Below, one piece after another: positions 473-7,643 of a DNA stretch of 7,741 nucleotides. Under the pieces are notes generated by a model. That model had not been told where the DNA came from. It did no database searches and saw only the letters and a list, made by a program, of their open reading frames with translations. The translations under genes and the position numbers were made by a program. How positions within the stretch are numbered: the stretch's first letter is position 1; every line of letters starts with the position of its first letter. This DNA comes from a virus (Duplodnaviria > Heunggongvirae > Uroviricota > Caudoviricetes): IMG/VR virus record IMGVR_UViG_2711768010_000001. One strand, given 5' to 3'.

Positions 473-712
473 NNNNNNNNNNNNNNNNNNNNNNNNNNNN
501 NNNNNNNNNNNNNNNNNNNNNNNNNNNNNNNNNNNNNNNNNNNNNNNNNNNNNNNNNNNNNNNNNNNNNNNNNNNNNNNNNNNNNNNNNNNNNNNNNNNN
601 NNNNNNNNNNNNNNNNNNNNNNNNNNNNNNNNNNNNNNNNNNNNNNNNNNNNNNNNNNNNNNNNNNNNNNNNNNNNNNNNNNNNNNNNNNNNNNNNNNNN
701 NNNNNNNNNNNN
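473..712. other. Run of 240 N (assembly gap or masked sequence)
   Basis: Directly visible: n from 473 to 712. Hides the endolysin 3' end and the 5' ends of Rz and Rz1. Confidence 1.
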
Positions 713-895
713 AAATGCCCTGTGCCATCCTCAGCCGAAACCTCCAGCGCCTCCGGCATGGGCAATGATGCCACCGTCGAACTCTCTCCAGTTGCTGGAC
801 GAAACGTTCTCGGTATCCGGGACGGAATCATCAGCGACCAGACAGCATTGAGAATGCTTCAGGAGTACATCAGGATCCAATGCCTTGGGGGGTAG
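713..895 (+). CDS. Rz: Rz-like i-spanin, C-terminal part (5' end in gap)
   Basis: Frame 2 reads ...SGMGNDATVELSPVAGRNVLGIRDGIISDQTALRMLQEYIRIQCLGG-stop, which parallels the lambda Rz C-terminus (...TASGVDNAASPRLADTAERDYFTLRERLITMQKQLEGTQKYINEQCR). Position after the endolysin fits a lysis cassette. Stop TAG at 893-895. Confidence 0.8.
   Translation, partial: KCPVPSSAETSSASGMGNDATVELSPVAGRNVLGIRDGIISDQTALRMLQEYIRIQCLGG
714..851 (+). CDS. Rz1: Rz1-like o-spanin, C-terminal part, embedded in the +1 frame of Rz (5' end in gap)
   Basis: Frame 0 reads ...CHPQPKPPAPPAWAMMPPSNSLQLLDETFSVSGTESSATRQH-stop (TGA 849-851). The proline-rich PPAPPAWAMMPP stretch resembles lambda Rz1 (KPPPPPAWIMQPPP). Lies entirely inside Rz. 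Confidence 0.7.
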   Translation, partial: NALCHPQPKPPAPPAWAMMPPSNSLQLLDETFSVSGTESSATRQH

Positions 896-950
896 CGGTA
901 ATTTTACTCATTATCCTTCAAATCAGATTCTGTTGTCAGAGGAATGGGGG

Positions 951-975
951 AAGCTGGATTCGCAAGAGCTTTTTA
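951..975 (+). terminator. Weak candidate intrinsic terminator downstream of Rz
   Basis: aagct(951-955) / agctt(967-971) 5-bp stem with an 11-nt loop, followed by a T-run (tttt). Short and AU-rich, so marginal. Confidence 0.2.
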
Positions 976-983
976 TGGGCAGT

Positions 984-1493
984 TTAGCTAAAAAAAGGCA
1001 ACACGAAGCTAAAACTACCAACATAAAGTGCTGACCAGCTAGCAGCTGAAATCAGACTCACTGTATACACTTTCACTGGATGAAGTTGCAACATTCCTGC
1101 CACCAAAGGAGCAATATAACGCAGCACGGCGATAAAGCGCGAAGTGAAAAGTATTGACACAGAGTTATTTTGCAACTGAAGGCGAACCCGTTCTATTGTA
1201 TTGGAACGGCTTGATATTATACATGCAAGTTGAGGGATATGCCCAATTATTATACCAAGATGGTAATTAACGATAGTACCGCACCATGCGCCACTCATGA
1301 CCGTGATTCCAGCTTCCCATGGTGAAAGAGTCGTCTTGCTGACTGTAATTACAGTGGCCATCATAATTGATGCTGGTGGCAATATCGCCGAAATGAGTAA
1401 AGTGGATTTTGTGAACGCTATTATAAAAAGAAGCCCCCATAGGCGATATGGATGAAGTACAAAATAGTTCATCAAAGCATTTATCCACTCCAT
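984..1493 (-). CDS. DedA/YqaA-family (SNARE-associated-like) polytopic inner-membrane protein; a moron gene opposite to the late operon
   Basis: Minus-strand ORF of about 169 codons. ATG at 1493-1491 preceded by AAGGAAAG (the track's TTG at 1496 is one codon upstream). Several hydrophobic segments. Motif pattern LPP-S-(x)n-SPW ... G-x-x-NYHLG ... AG resembles E. coli YqaA as recalled. Sits in an AT-rich island (about 896-1560) between the lysis and packaging modules. Stop TAA. Confidence 0.75.
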   Translation of the reverse strand: MEWINALMNYFVLHPYRLWGLLFIIAFTKSTLLISAILPPASIMMATVITVSKTTLSPWEAGITVMSGAWCGTIVNYHLGIIIGHIPQLACIISSRSNTIERVRLQLQNNSVSILFTSRFIAVLRYIAPLVAGMLQLHPVKVYTVSLISAASWSALYVGSFSFVLPFFS

Positions 1494-1546
1494 CAATGTC
1501 TTTCCTTCTGTGAATTTTTCTTTGCTATTTAACCGTGATACGACTT

Positions 1547-1576
1547 AATTTAGGCTTAAACACCTTACATTTACAA
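1547..1576 (-). promoter_or_regulatory. Candidate sigma70 promoter for the DedA-like gene
   Basis: On the minus strand: TTGTAA (1576-1571), 18-nt spacer, TAAATT (1552-1547), about 45 nt upstream of the ATG at 1493. Each hexamer matches consensus at only 4 of 6 positions. Confidence 0.2.
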
Positions 1577-1690
1577 GGTACTCCTGTGGGGGGCCCTGCC
1601 ACGGAGCGTCGCAGGAGTGAGTGATGAGGAAGAATTAAAGCAACCTATTGTGACAGGCAGCGATAACAGTAAATCACAGGAAGCATAATC

Positions 1691-2455
1691 ATGGCAAAAC
1701 CGGACTGGGAGGCCATCGAATCGGCATACCGGGCCGGAGTCCTTAGCCTCCGTGATATAGGCGAGAAATACGGCGTTACAGAAGGGGCTATCAGGAAGAG
1801 GGCCAAAAAGCTTGGTTGGGCACGCAGTGGCGGTACGCAGGTTTGCAAAAATGGTACGCAAAAAAGGAAAGTGCGTACCAGCAGAAAGCCTGCCATTACT
1901 GGCCTTACACAAAAAAGTACGCAACTAAAAACAGAATCTACACCGGATACGAAACCGATACGCGGAATGCGTACCGATCCCCCGACTAACCCATTCCAAC
2001 CCGGTAACCAGCAGGCATTAAAACACGGTGGTTATGCCCGTCGCCTTCTGCTCAAAGATGAGGTGATAGAGGACGCTAAAGCGTTGACGCTCGAGGACGA
2101 ATTATTTCGCCTTCGTGCTAACAACCTTGTCGCTGCAGAGAATATTGGTCGGTGGTTGGTGTCGCTGGAAGATGCTAATGGGGACCAGGAAAGGAAGATG
2201 CTGATTGAAAATATCAGCGCCGCCGAGAAAGCAATGATGCGCAATACAGTTCGTATTGAGTCCATCGTTGGCACGCTTGCGACGGTAGGAAAAATATTTG
2301 CTGATACAGCCTACCGCAAGGCCGCCACTGATAAGGTGTCTCTGGAGGCTGATCGTCTTCGCCGTGATGCAGGTATTGATGATGGCAATGGAGAGCGTGA
2401 CCTCAATGACTTCTACTCTGACATCCAAACCGACGCTGAATCCGGCTTTACGTAG
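1691..2455 (+). CDS. terS: Terminase small subunit (TerS) with N-terminal helix-turn-helix
   Basis: ATG at 1691 preceded by AGGAAG with an 8-nt spacer. N-terminus LSLRDIGEKYGVTEGAIRKRAKKLGW is a typical TerS DNA-binding HTH. Basic low-complexity linker, then a helical C-terminal region. Immediately upstream of and overlapping the large terminase gene. Stop TAG 2453-2455. Confidence 0.88.
   Translation: MAKPDWEAIESAYRAGVLSLRDIGEKYGVTEGAIRKRAKKLGWARSGGTQVCKNGTQKRKVRTSRKPAITGLTQKSTQLKTESTPDTKPIRGMRTDPPTNPFQPGNQQALKHGGYARRLLLKDEVIEDAKALTLEDELFRLRANNLVAAENIGRWLVSLEDANGDQERKMLIENISAAEKAMMRNTVRIESIVGTLATVGKIFADTAYRKAATDKVSLEADRLRRDAGIDDGNGERDLNDFYSDIQTDAESGFT
1832..1975. repeat. Cluster of five GTACGCA / TGCGTAC repeats inside terS (candidate pac or TerS-binding array)
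   Basis: ggtacgca at 1832-1839 and 1853-1860; tgcgtacc at 1872-1879; gtacgca at 1917-1923; tgcgtacc at 1968-1975. Copies 2 and 3 form a perfect 8-bp inverted repeat with an 11-nt spacer. Found by direct reading. Confidence 0.35.
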
Positions 2456-3809
2456 TTTCTGGACTATGCGGGCACGTAACAAAGTGCTTTATGGTGGTCG
2501 GTCATCGTCAAAATCATGGGATGCCGCTGGCATTGCCATATTTCTGTCGAATAAATACACCCTGCGTTTTTGTTGTGCCCGTCAGATCCAGAATAAAATC
2601 GAAGAGTCGGTGTATACCCTGCTCAAAATTCAGATAGACAGGTTTGGTCTGCGGCACCGTTTCCGTATTCTGAACAACAAAATCATTAACCGGGTTACTG
2701 GCTCGGAATTTGTTTTTTATGGATTATGGCGCAACATCGAAGAAATTAAGTCACTGGAGGGGATCGATGTGTTGTGGCTGGAAGAAGCCCACGCACTGAC
2801 GGAATACCAGTGGAAAATTCTGGAGCCAACGATCCGTAAAGAGGGTTCGGAATGCTGGTTCATATTCAACCCCGGACTTGTTACTGATTTCGTCTGGCGC
2901 AACTTCGTTGTTGATCCGCCCGAAGGCACTCTCATCCGCAAAATTAACTATGACGAAAATCCGTTTCTGTCTGACACCATGCTTAAGGTTATCGACGCGG
3001 CGCGACGCCGTGATCCGGATGGTTTTAAACATGTGTATGAGGGCGTTCCGGAGTCTGATGATGATGCGGCAATCATCAAACTGTCTTGGATAGAAGCCGC
3101 AGTGGATGCGCACAAAACGTTAAATTTCGAACCCAGTGGAAGAAAGCGTATTGGCTTTGACGTGGCTGACAGTGGTACAGATAAGTGCGCTAACGTTTAC
3201 CGTCACGGATCCGTTGTTTTCTGGGCCGACGAATGGAAGGCCAAAGAAGATGAATTACTGAAGAGCTGCCAGCGTACTTATCAGGCGGCGCTGGAGCGTG
3301 AAGCAGATATTGTTTACGACTCTATCGGTGTTGGTGCGTCTGCCGGTGCTAAATTCTCTGAAATTAACGCTGACCGGAAGAGCGAGAACGCATACGCGCG
3401 ACGTGTGAATTACCAGAGGTTTAACGCCGGTGCTGGTGTGCATGAGCCAGATGACGAGTACAACGGCATCCCCAACAAAGACTTTTTCGCAAATCTTAAG
3501 GCTCAGGCATGGTGGCTGGTGGCTGACCGTTTCAGAAATACGTTTAACGCCATTAACAACGGAGAACAGTATCCTGTGGATGAGCTGATCAGCATAGATT
3601 CTCGTTGTCCGTTGCTTGAAAAGCTGAAACTGGAACTGACAACACCTCATCGTGATTTCGACCGTAACGGACGTGTGATGGTCGAAAGTAAAAAAGACCT
3701 CGCAAAACGCGAGATACCGTCACCAAACGTTGCTGATGCATTCATTATGGCCTTCGCGCCAATCGATACATCGCTGGATATCTGGGAACAGCTGGGGAGA
3801 CAGGCCTGA
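2406..3809 (+). CDS. terL: Terminase large subunit (TerL), PBSX/SPP1-type ATPase-nuclease
   Basis: Walker A-like VLYGGRSSSKSWDAAG and Walker B-like IDVLWLEEAH in the N-terminal half; acidic nuclease-type motifs (IGFDVADSGTDK, YDSIGVG) in the C-terminal half. The frame is open from 2298, but the first 36 codons overlap terS. Start is ambiguous among ATGs at 2382, 2388, 2406 and 2466; 2406 chosen (GGAGAG 12 nt upstream, N-terminus MTSTLTSKPTLNPALRSFW). Stop TGA 3807-3809. Confidence 0.9.
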   Translation: MTSTLTSKPTLNPALRSFWTMRARNKVLYGGRSSSKSWDAAGIAIFLSNKYTLRFCCARQIQNKIEESVYTLLKIQIDRFGLRHRFRILNNKIINRVTGSEFVFYGLWRNIEEIKSLEGIDVLWLEEAHALTEYQWKILEPTIRKEGSECWFIFNPGLVTDFVWRNFVVDPPEGTLIRKINYDENPFLSDTMLKVIDAARRRDPDGFKHVYEGVPESDDDAAIIKLSWIEAAVDAHKTLNFEPSGRKRIGFDVADSGTDKCANVYRHGSVVFWADEWKAKEDELLKSCQRTYQAALEREADIVYDSIGVGASAGAKFSEINADRKSENAYARRVNYQRFNAGAGVHEPDDEYNGIPNKDFFANLKAQAWWLVADRFRNTFNAINNGEQYPVDELISIDSRCPLLEKLKLELTTPHRDFDRNGRVMVESKKDLAKREIPSPNVADAFIMAFAPIDTSLDIWEQLGRQA

Positions 3810-5275
3810 TGGCACGAAACAAACAAGCCCTGCGGCGAACTGTGCAGGCCACAGCTGATGGTTATGAGAATTTTATTGCCCGCGTAGGGATGCAGACACC
3901 TAACCAGCACTCAGCATCCACCTACCGGGCTAATTTCACCAGTCGTAACCGCATGCTGGTGGAATGGTCCTATCGTTCATCCTAGATCATCGGCGAAGCA
4001 GTCGATGCTATCCCGGATGATATGACCCGCAAAGGCATTCGCATCACTTCGGAAATTGATGCAAAAGATCGTGGCATTCTCGAATCACAACTGGATGAGT
4101 TGCAAATCTGGGATGCGCTGAATGACGTGCTGAAATGGTCGCGCCTCTACGGCGGCGCGGTGGGTTTCATCATGATTGAGGGGTAGGCACCAATGACCCC
4201 GCTGCGACCCGAAACCATCGGTAAGGGCAAGTTTAAGGGGATTCTCCCGCTCGACCGCTGGATGGTCGACCCGGCACTGACCCGCCGCATTAAAGATATG
4301 GGGCCGGACCTGGGTAAACCTGAGTTTTACGATGTGGTGACCACAGCAACGGGAATTCCTGCCTGGCGCATTCATCACAGTCGCCTGATTCGCTTTGATG
4401 GCGTCACGTTGCCATTTCAGCAGAAGATGACCGAGAACGAATGGGGAATGTCGGTTGTAGAGCGTATCTGGGATCGTCTTACCGCGTTCGACAGCGCTAC
4501 TGTCGGCGCGGCGCAGCTGGTCTACAAGGCGCATTTGCGTACCTACAGCGTGGAGAAGCTACGCGAGCTTATCGCACTTGGTGGTCCTGCGTATGAAGCG
4601 TTGCTGAAGAATATCGACCTGATTCGACAGTTCCAGAGTAATGAAGGCATGACGCTCATGGACTCGCGGGATAAGTTTGAAACCCATCAGTACAGCTTCA
4701 GTGGTCTGGATGACATCCTTTCGCAGTTTGTAGAACAGATTAGTGGCGCTGTTGGTATCCCACTGGTGCGGTTGTTCGGACAGTCCCCGAAAGGATTTTC
4801 TACCGGTGATGCAGACCTTGCCAACTATTACGATCGCATCAGTTCGTTGCAGGAGAGGCGTTTACGTCTTCCGGTGCGGCGGATACTGGACATCATGCAT
4901 CGTTCGGAACTTGGCAAGCCGCTGCCGGACGATTTCACGTTTGAGTTTAACCCGCTCTGGCAAATGTCTGATGTCGATCGCTCAACGGTGGCGTTAAACA
5001 CCACCAACGCAATCAGTACGGCGCTGGGTGATGGTCTGATGACACTGAAAGCCGCTATGACTGATTTGCGAGAAAATTCTGACGTAACCGGCATCGGGGC
5101 ATCCATTACCGACGAGGACATCGAGAATGCCGAAGATGAAGCGCCGCCCGGCATCGGCGAACCTGATGACGAACCGCAGGAGCCGTCAGGCGGAAATCCG
5201 GTATCGAACCAGCCTACGCAGGATAGCGAGGGCGGTCGGAGACATCGTAAATGGTCGCTACGATGGTTCAAATGA
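3809..5275 (+). pseudogene. Portal protein gene: one continuous 489-codon frame (terminal TGA included) interrupted by two in-frame TAG codons (3983-3985 and 4184-4186)
   Basis: ATG at 3809 overlaps the terL stop (tgATG) and follows GGGGAG. Hand translation of frame 2: 58 codons (MARNKQALRR...VEWSYRSS), TAG, 66 codons (IIGEAVDAIPDDMTRKGI...LYGGAVGFIMIEG), TAG, then AP plus the 360-aa ORF 4193-5275. No frameshift. Size and position between terL and the Mu F-like gene fit a portal. Confidence 0.8.
4193..5275 (+). CDS. Largest intact ORF of the portal gene (C-terminal 360 codons); likely to be called as a separate CDS by gene finders
   Basis: ATG at 4193 with GAGGGG 9 nt upstream; same frame as 3809. 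Acidic C-terminal tail. Stop TGA 5273-5275. Whether it is translated on its own is unknown. Confidence 0.6.
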   Translation: MTPLRPETIGKGKFKGILPLDRWMVDPALTRRIKDMGPDLGKPEFYDVVTTATGIPAWRIHHSRLIRFDGVTLPFQQKMTENEWGMSVVERIWDRLTAFDSATVGAAQLVYKAHLRTYSVEKLRELIALGGPAYEALLKNIDLIRQFQSNEGMTLMDSRDKFETHQYSFSGLDDILSQFVEQISGAVGIPLVRLFGQSPKGFSTGDADLANYYDRISSLQERRLRLPVRRILDIMHRSELGKPLPDDFTFEFNPLWQMSDVDRSTVALNTTNAISTALGDGLMTLKAAMTDLRENSDVTGIGASITDEDIENAEDEAPPGIGEPDDEPQEPSGGNPVSNQPTQDSEGGRRHRKWSLRWFK

Positions 5276-5909
5276 CAGTATCACGGAAATTATTGCGGCG
5301 CTGGAGCGTTACAGTGAAATCATCACCCCCTGGGCGACAAAGGTCGCGGAAAACTTTACTGCGGACCTAACCCGGCAGAACGAGAAAGTTTGGCGGCAAC
5401 ACAGCAAGAACATCAGTCGCGAGCTCCGCAATCTTGTGGAAAGCGCTCCTGTGGGCCAGGTGATGCAATCCATCATCGCCGAACAGGTCAAGTACATCAA
5501 ATCTCTGCCTCTCGAGGCCGCAGACAGGGTGTACGACATCCAGAACAAAGCGATAGAGGCTGTTGTCACCGGTGGTCGGGCGGAGCAGTTTGCTAAAGAG
5601 ATTGCATCTACCGGCGATGTTGCTAAGTCTAGGGCCGATCTGATTGCCCGAACGGAACTGGGAAGAGCAACGGGCGCGCTGGATATGGCCCGAGCGATAG
5701 CTATTGGCTCGGATGGTTATATTTGGCGTACAGCCGATGATGGCGATGTCCGAGATTCCCACGATCACATGAAAGGTAAATTCGTCCGCTGGGATTCACC
5801 TCCAACTTTGGACGGCATGACCGGCCACGCGGGCGAGCTGCCAAACTGCCGCTGCTATAAAGAGATCGTGTTTGTTCGCGTTCCATTCGCAATGAAAAGG
5901 GCAGCATAA
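5127..5909 (+). CDS. Head morphogenesis protein, Mu F / SPP1 gp7 family
   Basis: C-terminal Mu F-like signature: ARTELGRA ... W ... DVRDSHDHMKGKFVRWD ... ELPNCRCY. ATG at 5127 with GAGG 9 nt upstream. No alternative start lies downstream of the portal stop, so it overlaps the portal 3' end by at least 110 nt. Stop TAA 5907-5909. Confidence 0.85.
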   Translation: MPKMKRRPASANLMTNRRSRQAEIRYRTSLRRIARAVGDIVNGRYDGSNDSITEIIAALERYSEIITPWATKVAENFTADLTRQNEKVWRQHSKNISRELRNLVESAPVGQVMQSIIAEQVKYIKSLPLEAADRVYDIQNKAIEAVVTGGRAEQFAKEIASTGDVAKSRADLIARTELGRATGALDMARAIAIGSDGYIWRTADDGDVRDSHDHMKGKFVRWDSPPTLDGMTGHAGELPNCRCYKEIVFVRVPFAMKRAA

Positions 5910-5912
5910 CCC

Positions 5913-7133
5913 ATGAAATACTTTTTTGAGACCAGGCTCGGGGAAACCCGATACCGCCTGGCTGACGGCTCGTTGCTGTGCAAAGACGTGCCGATAGGAC
6001 GAACAGGTAAGCAGCTCTATGGTGCTGATGACCTGCCAAAACTGAAACCCGATAAGTTCGGTGAAATAGTCGTCACGCGTTCTCCTGAGCAGGTATTCCA
6101 TCCGGCCACGCTTGCCTCATTCGAAGGGATGAGCATCACGATCCTGCATCCTGAAGATGAAAACGGGAATGTGCGGCTGGTAAATCCCGAGAACTGGAAA
6201 GAGCTTGCTGTCGGGCACCTCCAGAATGTCCGGCGCGGGACGGGTGAGCAGTCTGATTTGATGCTGGCTGACCTTATCGTCAAAGACGAAAGCGCCATTC
6301 AGCTTATCGAAGATGGCCTGCGCGAAGTGTCGTGCGGCTATGACGCGGAGTACGAGCAGACCGAGCCAGGTAAAGCCGAGCAGGTCGATATTACCGGAAA
6401 CCATGTGGCTCTTGTCCCTAAAGGCAGAGCCGGAAATCGTTGTGCAATTGGAGACAGAGACACAATGGCAAATCAAAAGAAAAACTGGTGGAACCGCATG
6501 CGTGCGGCCATCAAGACAGGAGATGCCGACACCATGAACGAACTGGTGGAGTCGGCTCCCGCATCGGTTACAGGAGATGAGGGGGATTTGCCGCAGGGCG
6601 TTAATCTCAACATCAACCTGTCCCCGCAGCAACCACTACCGGACAAAGCACCAGAGATGGGCGGAGATCCAACCGGCGACAGTGATGATGACCTCAAAAC
6701 ATTACTGAAAGCCCTGCTGGCTAAGCTGGAAAGAAATGCCACGGGCGATAACGATAATAAGCCTGACGATAATCCGACCGGTGACGGCGAGGACGATGAA
6801 GAGGAAACCACGATTACTGGTGACTCAGCCTGGCGTGCCGAAGTTATCGTTCCGGGTATCGATCTGAGCCGTAAGATGAAACCGACCGCGTTCAAACGCG
6901 AGGTTCTGGCTTCTGCTGACAAAACGCTGGTTCGCCAGATAGTCGGTGATGCGGATATCCGCAAATTACCGAAACAATCGGTCGACATGGCGTTTAATGC
7001 CGTGTCTGAGGTTGCCAAAGGGCGAAACACCCGCGCCACCACCGGCGATGCACAGCGCCTAAACATGGGCATGACCAGTATCGCTTCCCTGAACAAACAA
7101 AACGCTGAATTCTGGGCAAACCGTAAAGGGTAA
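5913..7133 (+). CDS. DUF2213-family phage protein (PBSX XkdF-like putative prohead protease or scaffold) with an acidic low-complexity middle region
   Basis: N-terminal 180 aa carry motifs I associate with DUF2213 (RTGKQLY, RSPEQVF, ITILHP, SCGYDAEYE, NHVALVPKGRAG). Middle region is Asp/Glu-rich with repeated TGD tripeptides. Helical C-terminus. Position between the Mu F gene and downstream capsid genes is typical. Stop TAA. Confidence 0.8.
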   Translation: MKYFFETRLGETRYRLADGSLLCKDVPIGRTGKQLYGADDLPKLKPDKFGEIVVTRSPEQVFHPATLASFEGMSITILHPEDENGNVRLVNPENWKELAVGHLQNVRRGTGEQSDLMLADLIVKDESAIQLIEDGLREVSCGYDAEYEQTEPGKAEQVDITGNHVALVPKGRAGNRCAIGDRDTMANQKKNWWNRMRAAIKTGDADTMNELVESAPASVTGDEGDLPQGVNLNINLSPQQPLPDKAPEMGGDPTGDSDDDLKTLLKALLAKLERNATGDNDNKPDDNPTGDGEDDEEETTITGDSAWRAEVIVPGIDLSRKMKPTAFKREVLASADKTLVRQIVGDADIRKLPKQSVDMAFNAVSEVAKGRNTRATTGDAQRLNMGMTSIASLNKQNAEFWANRKG

Positions 7134-7136
7134 AAA

Positions 7137-7643
7137 ATGAATAATGTATTTCTGTACCGGATGCCTGTTGGCATTGCCGGGGCTGTCTCTCGCCCGCAGG
7201 ACTTAACCGTCGAACCGGTGGTCCTTAAATCCGATAACGCCTTCGCTGCCTATGGCCTGGCTGGTAAATACGATGATGACGGTTTTTTCGTGCCGCTGGC
7301 AGATGGTGATACCGCAGACAAGGTGAAGGGGATCTACGTGCGCCCTTATCCGACCACGTCGCAGCCGGACATGGTTCGCCAGGTGGGAACAGGCAAGAAC
7401 TTCCCGGGCGACGCCATGAAGCGTGGCTACGTGACCGTTAATCTCGGTTCTGATTTTGATGCCAGCACTATCAAAAAAGGCGATCCGGTATACGTTGTCG
7501 TCTCCACTGATGAATCCATCAAAGTGCCGCTGGGTGGATTCATGTCCACGTCAGTCAGTGGCAAAAACGTGGTGCTGACCAACGCTGAATTCACAGGTGC
7601 CGGTGATGCTGACGGCAATGCAGAAATTTCCTGGAAGATTTAA
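7137..7643 (+). CDS. Small phage head-associated structural protein (function uncertain; possibly decoration or cement)
   Basis: 168-codon ORF with AAGGG 6 nt upstream of the ATG. Coding-like composition; Gly, Asp, Val and Thr-rich with no hydrophobic segment. Sits where head accessory or capsid genes follow the scaffold gene. Stop TAA 7641-7643. Confidence 0.7.
   Translation: MNNVFLYRMPVGIAGAVSRPQDLTVEPVVLKSDNAFAAYGLAGKYDDDGFFVPLADGDTADKVKGIYVRPYPTTSQPDMVRQVGTGKNFPGDAMKRGYVTVNLGSDFDASTIKKGDPVYVVVSTDESIKVPLGGFMSTSVSGKNVVLTNAEFTGAGDADGNAEISWKI

What the first reader, a model, noticed from the sequence alone, without database searches (positions are those of the whole stretch)
896..1690. AT-rich moron with a divergently transcribed DedA/YqaA-like membrane protein between the lysis and packaging modules
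The only minus-strand gene in the window sits in a lower-GC island between Rz and terS, the classic moron position in lambdoid phages (where bor-type genes sit). It has its own RBS and a candidate promoter in the 197-bp divergent intergenic region. DedA-family proteins affect membrane homeostasis and proton-motive-force-dependent processes. A prophage-borne copy could be a lysogenic-conversion or superinfection-exclusion factor, or could modulate SAR-endolysin triggering, which depends on membrane energisation. This function is speculative.
Basis: partly seen in the sequence, partly recalled or inferred. Interest (0 to 1): 0.5.

Follow-up and report, generated by a model that had tools for sequence, protein, structure and literature searches.

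The report
Prophage cargo gene encoding atypical DedA
A decaying Shigella/E. coli prophage carries, between its lysis and DNA-packaging genes, a host-derived inner-membrane DedA-family gene with its own inherited promoter; the protein belongs to a small enterobacterial subfamily that has lost both conserved membrane-embedded acidic residues, so the "moron" is real and moderately novel, but its function is untested.

Summary
Window 896-1690 is a 795-bp, 42% GC cassette that replaces a ~60-bp Rz-terS spacer found in related prophages. It holds one minus-strand gene (984-1493, 169 aa) that matches Pfam VTT/DedA (PF09335, 52.4 bits, cutoff 33.9). "YqaA-like" is wrong: the nearest K-12 paralogs are YabI, DedA and YqjA.

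The gene and 75 bp of promoter (window 974-1568) are 82% identical to an independent Citrobacter youngae prophage moron and 77-79% identical to chromosomal Citrobacter/Kosakonia genes. It is therefore a host gene captured with its promoter. It is under purifying selection (dN/dS 0.15-0.25). It stays intact in a prophage whose portal gene has two stop codons.

The protein defines a small Enterobacterales-only subfamily in which both near-universal core carboxylates are replaced (YqjA-E39 position to Lys, 35/35; "GD" Asp to Ser/Thr, 30/31). Both arginines are kept.

Chromosomal members sit beside M-box-mgtE, corA or pagP. A conserved PhoP-box-like repeat lies 13 nt upstream of a -10 element.

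The best reading is a lysogen-expressed envelope/Mg2+-stress lipid-handling factor. Substrate, regulation and phenotype are inferred, not shown.

The parts
896..1690 (.). Inserted moron cassette between the Rz stop and the terS start (795 bp, 42.1% GC)
   Evidence: Alignment with the DedA-less prophage L002, which has ~60 bp at this position. GC values. Present in only 6 of 5,426 complete E. coli genomes.
984..1493 (-). dedA-subfamily CDS: 169 aa plus stop from the ATG at 1493; PGAP uses the TTG at 1496 (170 aa)
   Evidence: PF09335 at 52.4 bits against a cutoff of 33.9. PGAP protein WP_011069285.1, 'DedA family protein'. dN/dS 0.15-0.25. AF2 model pLDDT 78, pTM 0.74, showing the minimal DedA core.
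1503..1507 (-). Shine-Dalgarno AAGGA, 9 nt upstream of the ATG
   Evidence: Read directly from the sequence. GGAG/AGGA is conserved in homolog upstream regions.
1526..1531 (-). Conserved -10-like hexamer TAAATA with no -35 at 17 nt. The predicted TSS near 1519 is inferred.
   Evidence: Conserved as TTAAAT(A/T)G in the Shigella prophage, the C. youngae prophage, chromosomal Citrobacter and Enterobacter.
1546..1562 (-). PhoP-box-like direct repeat TGTTTA-AGCCT-AAATTA (9/12). It has a 1-nt insertion relative to the Citrobacter copies.
   Evidence: The same element lies 13 nt upstream of the -10 in 6-8 lineages, scoring 9-10/12. GTTGA half-sites occur in EMSA-verified Shigella PhoP sites (PMC5775216).
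974..1568 (-). Unit shared with the independent C. youngae prophage moron and with the chromosomal copies: promoter plus gene plus 10 bp
   Evidence: blastn gives 82% identity over 595 bp to L005/L027 and 77-79% to L028/L029/L030/L032.
1569..1690 (.). Right-hand part of the cassette, of unknown origin. It contains a GC-rich inverted repeat (~1579-1618) and the terS RBS.
   Evidence: Found only in the 5 moron-bearing genomes and in no phage record. The hairpin fold is not significant (z = -0.7).
713..895 (+). 3' end of the Rz spanin gene (left flank; the 5' part is masked by N at 474-712)
   Evidence: PF03245 and phrog_13.
1691..2455 (+). Terminase small subunit (right flank)
   Evidence: phrog_370, E = 7.5e-95. 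The same start sequence is present in L002.

Best explanation
The cassette is a bor-type moron. An enterobacterial chromosomal gene for a small inner-membrane DedA-superfamily protein was captured together with ~75 bp of its own promoter. It was placed antisense to the phage late operon at the lysis/packaging junction.

The gene is expressed on its own in the lysogen, not as part of lysis or packaging. It is kept by selection while the prophage decays.

The protein has the minimal DedA core: TM1, reentrant loop 1, TM2, two amphipathic helices, reentrant loop 2 and TM3. It keeps the two reentrant-loop arginines that bind the phosphate head group of undecaprenyl phosphate in UptA. It has replaced both membrane-embedded carboxylates (Glu to Lys, Asp to Ser/Thr).

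I infer that it binds or translocates an anionic lipid head group (undecaprenyl phosphate or an anionic phospholipid) without the canonical proton-coupling site. I also infer that it serves envelope homeostasis under Mg2+ limitation or cationic-peptide stress, probably under a PhoP-like response regulator in its ancestral setting.

Shown: family membership, insertion, capture with promoter, purifying selection, the residue changes, and the neighbourhood of homologs.

Inferred: expression in the lysogen, regulator, substrate, and benefit to the host.
For: Family and fold:
- PF09335 above cutoff.
- The AF2 model shows the expected DedA helices.

Insertion:
- The related prophage lacks the cassette.
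- Rare in E. coli (6/5,426), but the exact protein is on >=1000 contigs, mostly S. flexneri.

Capture with promoter:
- 595-bp unit shared with a second, unrelated prophage (GH19 endolysin, GpA terminase) at the same lysis/terminase junction and in the same antisense orientation.
- The same unit is shared with chromosomal Citrobacter and Kosakonia genes.

Selection:
- dN/dS 0.15-0.25, including the phage branches.
- The gene is intact although the portal has two stop codons and sister prophages carry IS insertions.
- Orthologs are retained in 0.85-0.93 Mb Arsenophonus genomes.

Residues:
- K replaces E in 35/35 subfamily members, against E/D in 132/132 other hits.
- S/T replaces the 'GD' Asp in 30/31, against D in 119/132.
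- R119, R125 and W153 are kept.
- Literature: YqjA E39/D51/R130/R136 are functional and central (bioRxiv 10.64898/2026.09.20.752871). UptA R112/R118 bind C55-P, and E32 pairs with R118 (PMC11474028).
- The nearest relatives outside the subfamily are DedA-PAP2 fusions.

Mg2+ link:
- M-box riboswitch plus mgtE beside the gene in Enterobacter, a metagenomic genome and Arsenophonus.
- corA beside it in all 8 Morganella loci.
- pagP beside it in Phytobacter ursingii.
- Perfect or 11/12 PhoP boxes in the Enterobacter intergenic region.
- A conserved PhoP-like repeat lies 13 nt from the -10.
- Published DedA-Mg2+ phenotypes: PMC10470534 and PMC10846249.
Against: - No expression or phenotype data exist for this gene. 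No paper in the library mentions it.
- The Shigella copy's box is only 9/12 with a 1-nt insertion, and 26-37% of shuffles score as well.
- No SF06xx/SF07xx, phage or DedA gene appears among the 117 PhoPQ-dependent genes of S. flexneri 301 (PMC5775216). The gene's Sf301 locus tag is unknown to me.
- The perfect Enterobacter boxes may serve mgtE rather than dedA.
- The promoter pattern was derived post hoc.
- Neighbourhood links are correlative. They are absent in Kosakonia, Citrobacter and many Arsenophonus loci.
- NCBIfam UptA equivalog scores are far below cutoff (19.9 against 250), so substrate identity is not established.
- Loss of the carboxylates could equally mean a non-transport role.
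Confidence: 0.5

Rival explanations
1. Superinfection-exclusion or anti-phage factor: a lysogen-expressed inner-membrane protein that blocks DNA entry or otherwise protects against incoming phages.
For: The gene sits in a moron slot and is antisense to the late genes, as many exclusion or conversion genes do. It is an integral membrane protein. It has been taken up independently by two unrelated prophages at the same junction.
Against: There is no PADLOC match. Orthologs are ordinary chromosomal genes under purifying selection in Citrobacter, Kosakonia, Enterobacter and Morganella, and are retained in tiny endosymbiont genomes. That pattern fits a cellular housekeeping role rather than defence. 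No tailed-phage homolog exists in 50,697 phage records or in BFVD.
Confidence: 0.12
2. Lysis-timing modulator: the protein alters the proton-motive force or membrane state and so tunes holin or SAR-endolysin triggering.
For: The gene is directly adjacent to the holin/SAR-type lysozyme/Rz cassette in two phage types. DedA mutants in other species show altered membrane polarisation (PMC10846249).
Against: The gene is antisense to the late transcript and has its own promoter inherited from non-phage genes. Both carboxylates thought to underlie proton dependence are absent. Chromosomal orthologs have no lysis genes nearby. The gene persists in prophages that can no longer lyse or package.
Confidence: 0.05
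3. Neutral passenger: a host gene picked up by illegitimate recombination or imprecise excision that hitch-hikes in a clonal, IS-ridden Shigella lineage without contributing any function.
For: The Shigella copies are ~100% identical, so they give no power to detect selection within the lineage. The PhoP-like box of the Shigella copy is degraded by a 1-nt insertion. An IS911 separates the box from the -10 in one strain. A route for capture is visible where a prophage lysis cassette abuts the chromosomal gene (L033).
Against: dN/dS is 0.16-0.23 on comparisons that include both phage copies. The ORF is intact on >=1000 contigs in a lineage that readily makes pseudogenes, while the neighbouring portal, terL and MuF genes are broken. 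Two prophage types acquired it independently at the same site.
Confidence: 0.2
4. Regulatory or dominant-negative partner: because DedA proteins dimerise through their reentrant loops, the acid-less variant forms heterodimers with host YqjA/YghB/YabI and modulates their activity rather than transporting anything itself.
For: [quoted passage not shown] The subfamily shows a charge reversal (E to K) at exactly that position.
Against: The subfamily is retained in strongly reduced endosymbiont genomes, which fits an autonomous function better. No co-occurrence analysis with other paralogs could be run. There is no direct evidence for heterodimers in any DedA.
Confidence: 0.08

Closest known systems
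E. coli DedA-family paralogs YabI, DedA and YqjA (COG0586-type, Pfam PF09335 VTT domain)
   Same: Same domain, above the Pfam cutoff. The layout is the same: two reentrant loops with the LP(G/P)x(S) and (G/S)RF...R motifs. Both arginines, W153 and the TM2 glycines are conserved.
   Different: Only 17-23% identity. The core Glu (YqjA E39) is Lys and the TM2 'GD' Asp is Ser/Thr. It lacks the C-terminal TM helix (~45 aa) and an N-terminal insertion. It scores far below the NCBIfam equivalog cutoffs.
UptA / DedA-type undecaprenyl-phosphate (C55-P) flippases (B. subtilis UptA, P. aeruginosa PA4029)
   Same: It is in the same superfamily. The arginine pair shown to mediate C55-P binding in UptA is conserved (PMC11474028). 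The nearest outgroup proteins are fused to PAP2 lipid-phosphate phosphatase domains.
   Different: The UptA NCBIfam models score 16-20 bits against cutoffs of 250-300. The UptA E32 that pairs with R118 is replaced by Lys, so the proposed H+-dependent step cannot work in the same way.
Lambda bor and similar morons at the Rz/cos-terminase junction
   Same: It occupies the same slot directly after Rz and is transcribed against the late operon. It has its own expression signals and a deviating GC content. The comparison with bor rests on established knowledge of lambda.
   Different: It is unrelated in sequence and fold. Bor is an outer-membrane lipoprotein, whereas this is a polytopic inner-membrane protein. 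No intrinsic terminator was found. Here the donor gene family and its promoter can be traced to enterobacterial chromosomes.
XdfA of Xanthomonas campestris (a DedA protein needed at low Mg2+)
   Same: It is a DedA-family protein linked to Mg2+ homeostasis (PMC10470534). In this subfamily the link is genomic: M-box-mgtE, corA and pagP are neighbours.
   Different: No sequence comparison with XdfA was run. The Mg2+ link for this subfamily comes from gene neighbourhood only and is not experimental.

Membership tests
DedA / VTT-domain superfamily (Pfam PF09335) | Profile match above the Pfam gathering score | tested here: met
   52.4 bits against a cutoff of 33.9, covering profile positions 3-121 of 123. 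All subfamily members tested also pass.
DedA / VTT-domain superfamily (Pfam PF09335) | Core topology: TM helices flanking two reentrant loops | tested here: inconclusive
   The AF2 model (pLDDT 78, pTM 0.74) has broken helices at 32-35/41-52 and 111-118/122-134 between long helices 15-29, 58-84 and 139-168. No solved DedA structure exists for comparison, and the model coordinates could not be inspected.
DedA / VTT-domain superfamily (Pfam PF09335) | Conserved arginine pair in reentrant loop 2 (YqjA R130/R136; UptA R112/R118) | tested here: met
   R119 and R125 are present. R occurs at these positions in 26/28 and 28/28 aligned subfamily members and in 128-130 of 132 other hits.
Canonical proton-dependent DedA (YqjA/YghB type) | Membrane-embedded Glu at the end of TM1 (YqjA E39, UptA E32) | tested here: not met
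   Lys in 35/35 subfamily sequences, against Glu/Asp in 132/132 other hits.
Canonical proton-dependent DedA (YqjA/YghB type) | Second acidic residue: YqjA D51 position, and the TM2 'GD' Asp | tested here: not met
   The D51 position is Ala in 35/35, and it is variable across the wider family. The 'GD' Asp is Ser/Thr in 30/31, against Asp in 119/132. YqjA D51A is non-functional.
   phmmer gives YqaA 6.2 bits (E = 0.11), against YabI 39.9, DedA 32.1 and YqjA 27.7.
UptA undecaprenyl-phosphate transporter (NCBIfam NF052604/NF052605 equivalogs) | Score above the equivalog cutoff | tested here: not met
   19.9 and 16.3 bits against cutoffs of 250 and 300. C55-P transport itself cannot be tested here.
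Phage moron | Extra gene absent from closely related phages, inserted between conserved modules | tested here: met
   L002 and many other prophages run from Rz to terS through ~60 bp. The window has 795 bp there.
Phage moron | Own promoter, independent of the phage operon | tested here: inconclusive
   The sigma-70 consensus scan is negative. A conserved -10 and an upstream direct repeat are inherited from chromosomal homologs. No transcript data are available.
Phage moron | Own transcription terminator | tested here: not met
   No intrinsic terminator lies downstream of the stop codon. The fold of 880-1000 is no better than shuffles.
Phage moron | Base composition deviating from the flanking phage genes | tested here: met
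   42.1% GC against 52.2% downstream and 46.4% upstream.
PhoP regulon member | PhoP box (T/G)GTTTA-N5-(T/G)GTTTA with at most 2 mismatches at an activating position | tested here: inconclusive
   Window: 9/12 with a 1-nt insertion. C. youngae 10/12; E. asburiae proximal 10/12 and distal 12/12; Enterobacter MAG distal 11/12. The proximal box lies 13 nt upstream of the -10. The gene is not among the reported Sf301 PhoPQ-dependent genes.
Known anti-phage defence systems (PADLOC-DB) | Match to any defence-protein model | tested here: not met
   0 families at E <= 1.

The most novel reading that the evidence does not exclude
The 'acid-less' DedA subfamily (Glu to Lys, Asp to Ser/Thr, arginines kept) is a proton-independent translocator or scramblase for an anionic lipid carrier such as undecaprenyl phosphate. 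It is switched on by low Mg2+ through PhoP and works alongside MgtE, CorA and PagP to remodel the envelope. Temperate phages have captured it, promoter included, as a lysogenic-conversion gene that raises the lysogen's resistance to cationic peptides or Mg2+ starvation in the host. This would be the first phage-borne DedA with a defined role. It would also be a natural counter-example to the view that the conserved Glu/Asp are indispensable for DedA function.
Probability: 0.15. Interest if true: 0.7.

Novelty: new variant of a known kind. Interest (0 to 1): 0.48.

Why it matters
**DedA mechanism.** The mechanism of DedA proteins is unresolved. No structure is solved, and proton coupling is inferred largely from the conserved Glu/Asp. 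This subfamily replaces both carboxylates yet is kept under purifying selection, even in genomes under 1 Mb. It is a ready-made test of what those residues do: K29E and S/T73D back-mutations, and complementation of DedA-null strains.

**Phage and pathogen biology.** The gene is carried on at least 1,000 sequenced contigs, mostly Shigella flexneri. It is therefore a widespread, uncharacterised candidate lysogenic-conversion factor affecting the envelope. The traceable capture (gene plus 75-bp promoter, at the same junction in two unrelated prophages) is a clean example of how morons arise.

**Mg2+ link.** The association with an M-box riboswitch, mgtE, corA, pagP and PhoP-like boxes gives a concrete condition, low Mg2+, under which to look for a phenotype.

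Tried and rejected
- **Sigma-70 promoter and terminator scan of 713-1800.** No promoter on the minus strand in the intergenic region and no terminator after the gene.
- **RNA folding.** Folds of the intergenic region, of the region after the stop codon and of the GC-rich inverted repeat at ~1579-1618 are no better than shuffles. The repeat search found nothing notable.
- **Rfam on 713-2000.** Only a chance snoRNA match.
- **PADLOC.** No hit.
- **Phage records.** tblastn against 50,697 records found no close homolog. The weak hits look like host-derived or mis-binned contigs.
- **Solved and viral structures.** PDB by sequence and by fold: no DedA structure. BFVD: only weak giant-virus 'SNARE-associated' matches.
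- **Origin of 1565-1690.** Found only in the moron-bearing genomes.
- **L078 (73% identity, IMG/VR).** Considered as a third phage context and rejected. The gene lies outside the end of a Mu-like prophage, in the DinI-dedA chromosomal arrangement.
- **Literature on this gene.** None found. The Sf301 phoPQ transcriptome paper and its supplements do not list it.
- **Alignment A3.** Too diverse for locus scanning, so it was replaced by A4.
- **MgtE as an obligate partner.** Rejected. MgtE is adjacent in only ~8 of 37 loci and is fragmented in some Arsenophonus genomes where dedA is intact.
Full report
**1. Observation**

The window is part of a lambdoid-regulated myovirus-type prophage. Its genes, in order, are:
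- a SAR-type lysozyme (109-473, then masked N to 712);
- the Rz 3' end (713-895);
- terS (1691-2455);
- a PBSX-type terL;
- a portal gene;
- a MuF-like protein;
- DUF2213;
- a cement protein.

Between Rz and terS lies a single credible minus-strand ORF, 984-1493 (ATG, 169 aa). PGAP uses the TTG at 1496. The ATG is conserved among homologs and the TTG is not.

The cassette 896-1690 is 42.1% GC. The packaging and head genes are 52.2% GC and the lysis genes 46.4%. An AAGGA Shine-Dalgarno sequence lies 9 nt before the ATG.

In a related prophage without the gene (L002), the Rz stop is followed after ~60 bp by the same terS start sequence. The finding's coordinates are therefore exactly the inserted segment.

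**2. Identity**

- The protein matches Pfam VTT_dom (PF09335) at 52.4 bits against a gathering score of 33.9. RefSeq calls it 'DedA family protein', WP_011069285.1.
- NCBIfam equivalogs are far below cutoff: PRK10847 scores 31 against 236, and UptA 19.9 against 250.
- Among the eight K-12 paralogs the best matches are YabI (39.9 bits), DedA (32.1) and YqjA (27.7). YqaA scores 6.2 bits (E = 0.11), so 'YqaA-like' is wrong.
- An AlphaFold model (pLDDT 78, pTM 0.74) shows TM1 (15-29), a broken-helix reentrant segment (32-52), TM2 (58-84), two short helices (87-109), a second broken-helix segment (111-134) and TM3 (139-168). This is the minimal DedA core without the C-terminal helix of the E. coli proteins.
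- No DedA structure is solved.

**3. A distinct, small subfamily without the core carboxylates**

An exhaustive search of 1.84 billion representatives gave only 15 hits at E <= 1e-10 and none at 1e-30.

I compared residues in a query-anchored alignment of all hits and in a MAFFT alignment with the K-12 paralogs:

| Position in the window protein | Subfamily | Other hits |
|---|---|---|
| 29 (YqjA E39, UptA E32) | Lys, 35/35 | Glu/Asp, 132/132 |
| 73 (Asp of the TM2 'GD' motif) | Ser/Thr, 30/31 | Asp, 119/132 |
| 41 (YqjA D51) | Ala, 35/35 | variable |
| 42 (YqjA S52) | Ser, retained | variable |
| 119, 125 (the two arginines) | retained | retained |
| 153 (Trp), 72 and 80 (Gly) | retained | retained |
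| 126 | Tyr, 28/28 | Pro/Ala |

The literature bears on these positions as follows:
- YqjA E39/D51 and R130/R136 sit at the centre of the modelled dimer. D51A, S52C and R136A fail to complement (bioRxiv 10.64898/2026.09.20.752871).
- In UptA, R112/R118 mediate C55-P binding and E32 is modelled hydrogen-bonded to R118 (PMC11474028).

The subfamily therefore keeps the phosphate-binding arginines but lacks the candidate protonation sites.

**4. Distribution and selection**

One genome per species across GTDB yields 37 loci, all in Enterobacterales:
- the Shigella/E. coli prophage;
- Citrobacter, Kosakonia, Phytobacter, Enterobacter and Morganella;
- Arsenophonus, including complete symbiont genomes of 0.85 and 0.93 Mb.

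The exact protein occurs on at least 1,000 contigs (the counter's cap), mostly S. flexneri. It is in only 6 of 5,426 complete E. coli genomes and in no isolated phage record.

Pairwise dN/dS is 0.15-0.25, including comparisons with both phage copies.

The prophage in the window is defective, because its portal has two in-frame stops. Sister copies carry IS2 in terL, an internal stop in the MuF gene, and IS911/IS600/IS1 insertions. The dedA ORF remains intact throughout.

**5. Origin of the moron**

Nucleotide homology to the C. youngae prophage copy runs from window 1568 to 974 (595 bp, 82%). It starts 75 bp upstream of the ATG and ends 10 bp after the stop. Chromosomal Citrobacter and Kosakonia genes share 77-79% identity over the same span or slightly less.

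The C. youngae prophage is unrelated in its flanks (holins, GH19 endolysin, Nu1-like/GpA terminase). Even so, it carries the gene at the same lysis/terminase junction and antisense to the late genes.

Within E. coli the cassette travels with the lysis genes:
- In L003 the homology continues 45 bp into terS and then switches to another terminase module.
- In L033 a prophage end (tail fibre, holin, lysozyme, Rz) directly abuts the chromosomal gene. This shows a plausible capture route.

The outer parts of the cassette (896-973 and 1569-1690) have no detectable relatives outside the moron-bearing genomes.

**6. Expression signals**

The consensus sigma-70 scan is negative in the intergenic region, and no terminator follows the gene.

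Aligning the upstream regions shows two conserved blocks:
- a -10-like TTAAAT(A/T)G;
- 13 nt upstream of it, a direct repeat [T/C/G]GTT[T/G]A-N5-[G/T/A/C]ATT[G/T/A]A.

No -35 is present. The blocks occur in the Shigella prophage, the C. youngae prophage, two chromosomal Citrobacter, two Enterobacter, and, by eye, Phytobacter diazotrophicus and a metagenomic genome.

The repeat matches the PhoP box (T/G)GTTTA-N5-(T/G)GTTTA in 9-10 of 12 positions. 'GTTGA' half-sites occur in EMSA-verified Shigella PhoP sites: icsA, slyB, shf and hdeA (PMC5775216).

Several caveats apply:
- The pattern was defined post hoc.
- The window copy scores 9/12 and has a 1-nt insertion between the half-sites, and 26-37% of shuffles score as well.
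- The gene is not visible among the 117 PhoPQ-dependent genes of Sf301.

**7. Neighbourhood of the chromosomal homologs**

| Lineage | Neighbour |
|---|---|
| Enterobacter and a metagenomic genome | mgtE, divergent, preceded by an M-box Mg2+ riboswitch (RF00380, 107-117 bits, gathering score 44); a perfect (12/12) or 11/12 PhoP box lies in the shared intergenic region |
| Arsenophonus | M-box-mgtE downstream in tandem; mgtE is fragmented in some genomes |
| All 8 Morganella loci | between rarD and corA |
| Phytobacter ursingii | next to pagP |
| Kosakonia | next to an L,D-transpeptidase |

Three different Mg2+/PhoPQ-related neighbours in separate arrangements are unlikely to be coincidence. 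They remain correlative, however. Published work links other DedA proteins to Mg2+ homeostasis (PMC10470534; PMC10846249). The nearest relatives outside the subfamily are DedA-PAP2-LssY_C fusion proteins.

**8. Interpretation**

The best-supported reading is a bor-type moron. A functional host membrane-homeostasis gene was captured with its promoter, is expressed independently of the late operon, and is retained by selection in a decaying prophage.

I commit to this mechanism: it handles an anionic lipid head group (C55-P or an anionic phospholipid) through the retained arginines, without canonical proton coupling, and it is useful under Mg2+ limitation or cationic-peptide stress. My confidence is about 0.5 for the general statement. 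It is lower for the regulator (~0.35) and the substrate (~0.3).

The rival readings and my confidence in each are:
- neutral passenger, 0.2;
- superinfection exclusion, 0.12;
- heterodimeric modulator of host DedA proteins, 0.08;
- lysis-timing modulator, 0.05.

The lysis-timing idea is weakened by three things: the antisense orientation, the inherited promoter, and the missing carboxylates together with the non-phage orthologs.

**9. Novelty**

The family assignment is already in public annotation. Three things appear not to be described in the searchable literature:
- a tailed-phage-borne DedA gene;
- the acid-less subfamily;
- its Mg2+-related genomic context.

I rate it a new variant of a known kind, of moderate interest.

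Noticed in passing
window 3809-5275: The portal (DUF1073/Phage_portal_3) reading frame has two in-frame stop codons (3983-3985 and 4184-4186), so this prophage copy is defective. The same gene is intact in FDAARGOS_943 (L001).
   Followed up: partly
window 474-712: A run of N (masked sequence) hides the 3' end of the lysozyme gene, the 5' part of Rz and any embedded Rz1.
   Followed up: no
L036 5653-5823 (-), L035 5674-5843 (-), L023 7574-7743 (-), L037 6792-6961 (+): An M-box Mg2+ riboswitch (RF00380, 107-117 bits) lies upstream of an MgtE-family gene directly beside the chromosomal dedA-subfamily gene. This occurs in Enterobacter, a metagenomic Enterobacterales genome and Arsenophonus. The gene order differs between the lineages (divergent versus tandem).
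   Followed up: partly
L036 5879-5895; L035 ~5899-5915: A perfect PhoP box (TGTTTAGAAAAGGTTTA, 12/12) and an 11/12 box lie in the mgtE-dedA divergent intergenic region of Enterobacter. It is unclear which of the two genes they serve.
   Followed up: partly
L049-L052, L055, L057-L059 (~4950-7490): In all eight Morganella loci the subfamily gene sits between rarD and corA (CorA Mg2+ channel, PF01544, E = 1.7e-55).
   Followed up: partly
L034 4664-5275: In Phytobacter ursingii a PagP lipid A palmitoyltransferase gene (PF07017) lies just upstream of the subfamily gene.
   Followed up: no
L033 878-5205: In Phytobacter diazotrophicus a prophage end (tail fibre, holin, lysozyme, Rz) directly abuts the chromosomal subfamily gene. 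This is a possible model for how a lysis-adjacent moron could be picked up.
   Followed up: partly
L004 ~4830 (window ~1541); L062 5458-6626; L001 22238-23466: IS elements litter the sister prophages. IS911 is inserted between the PhoP-like box and the -10 of dedA in strain VL7S7. IS911 interrupts terS in the O121 strain. IS2 interrupts terL in FDAARGOS_943.
   Followed up: no
L003 5016-8332: In strain RMDEC465 the lysis-dedA block is joined, 45 bp into terS, to a different terminase module. That module is followed by a gene annotated 'anti-CBASS protein Acb1 family protein'.
   Followed up: no
L001 18014-18324; L003 2012-2322; L004 2405-2711: A cluster of four tRNA genes (Ile, Arg, Thr and Gly or Val) lies upstream of the holin in these prophages.
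   Followed up: no
L078 3145-14316: The end of a Mu-like prophage (MuB, MuA, repressor) lies next to DinI-dedA. It is followed by SRAP, SMEK, Macro-domain and DarT genes, which may form a DarTG-type island.
   Followed up: partly
P0035, P0038, P0040, P0056 (proteins): The closest relatives outside the subfamily are 500-690 aa fusions of an N-terminal DedA domain with PAP2 lipid-phosphate phosphatase and LssY_C domains. One 1,223-aa protein fuses DedA with ankyrin repeats and a Ser/Thr kinase.
   Followed up: partly
window 1579-1618: A GC-rich inverted repeat (ACTCCTG...CAGGAGT) lies between the dedA promoter and terS, in the part of the cassette with no relatives elsewhere. Its folding energy is not better than shuffles, and it has no T-run.
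   Followed up: yes
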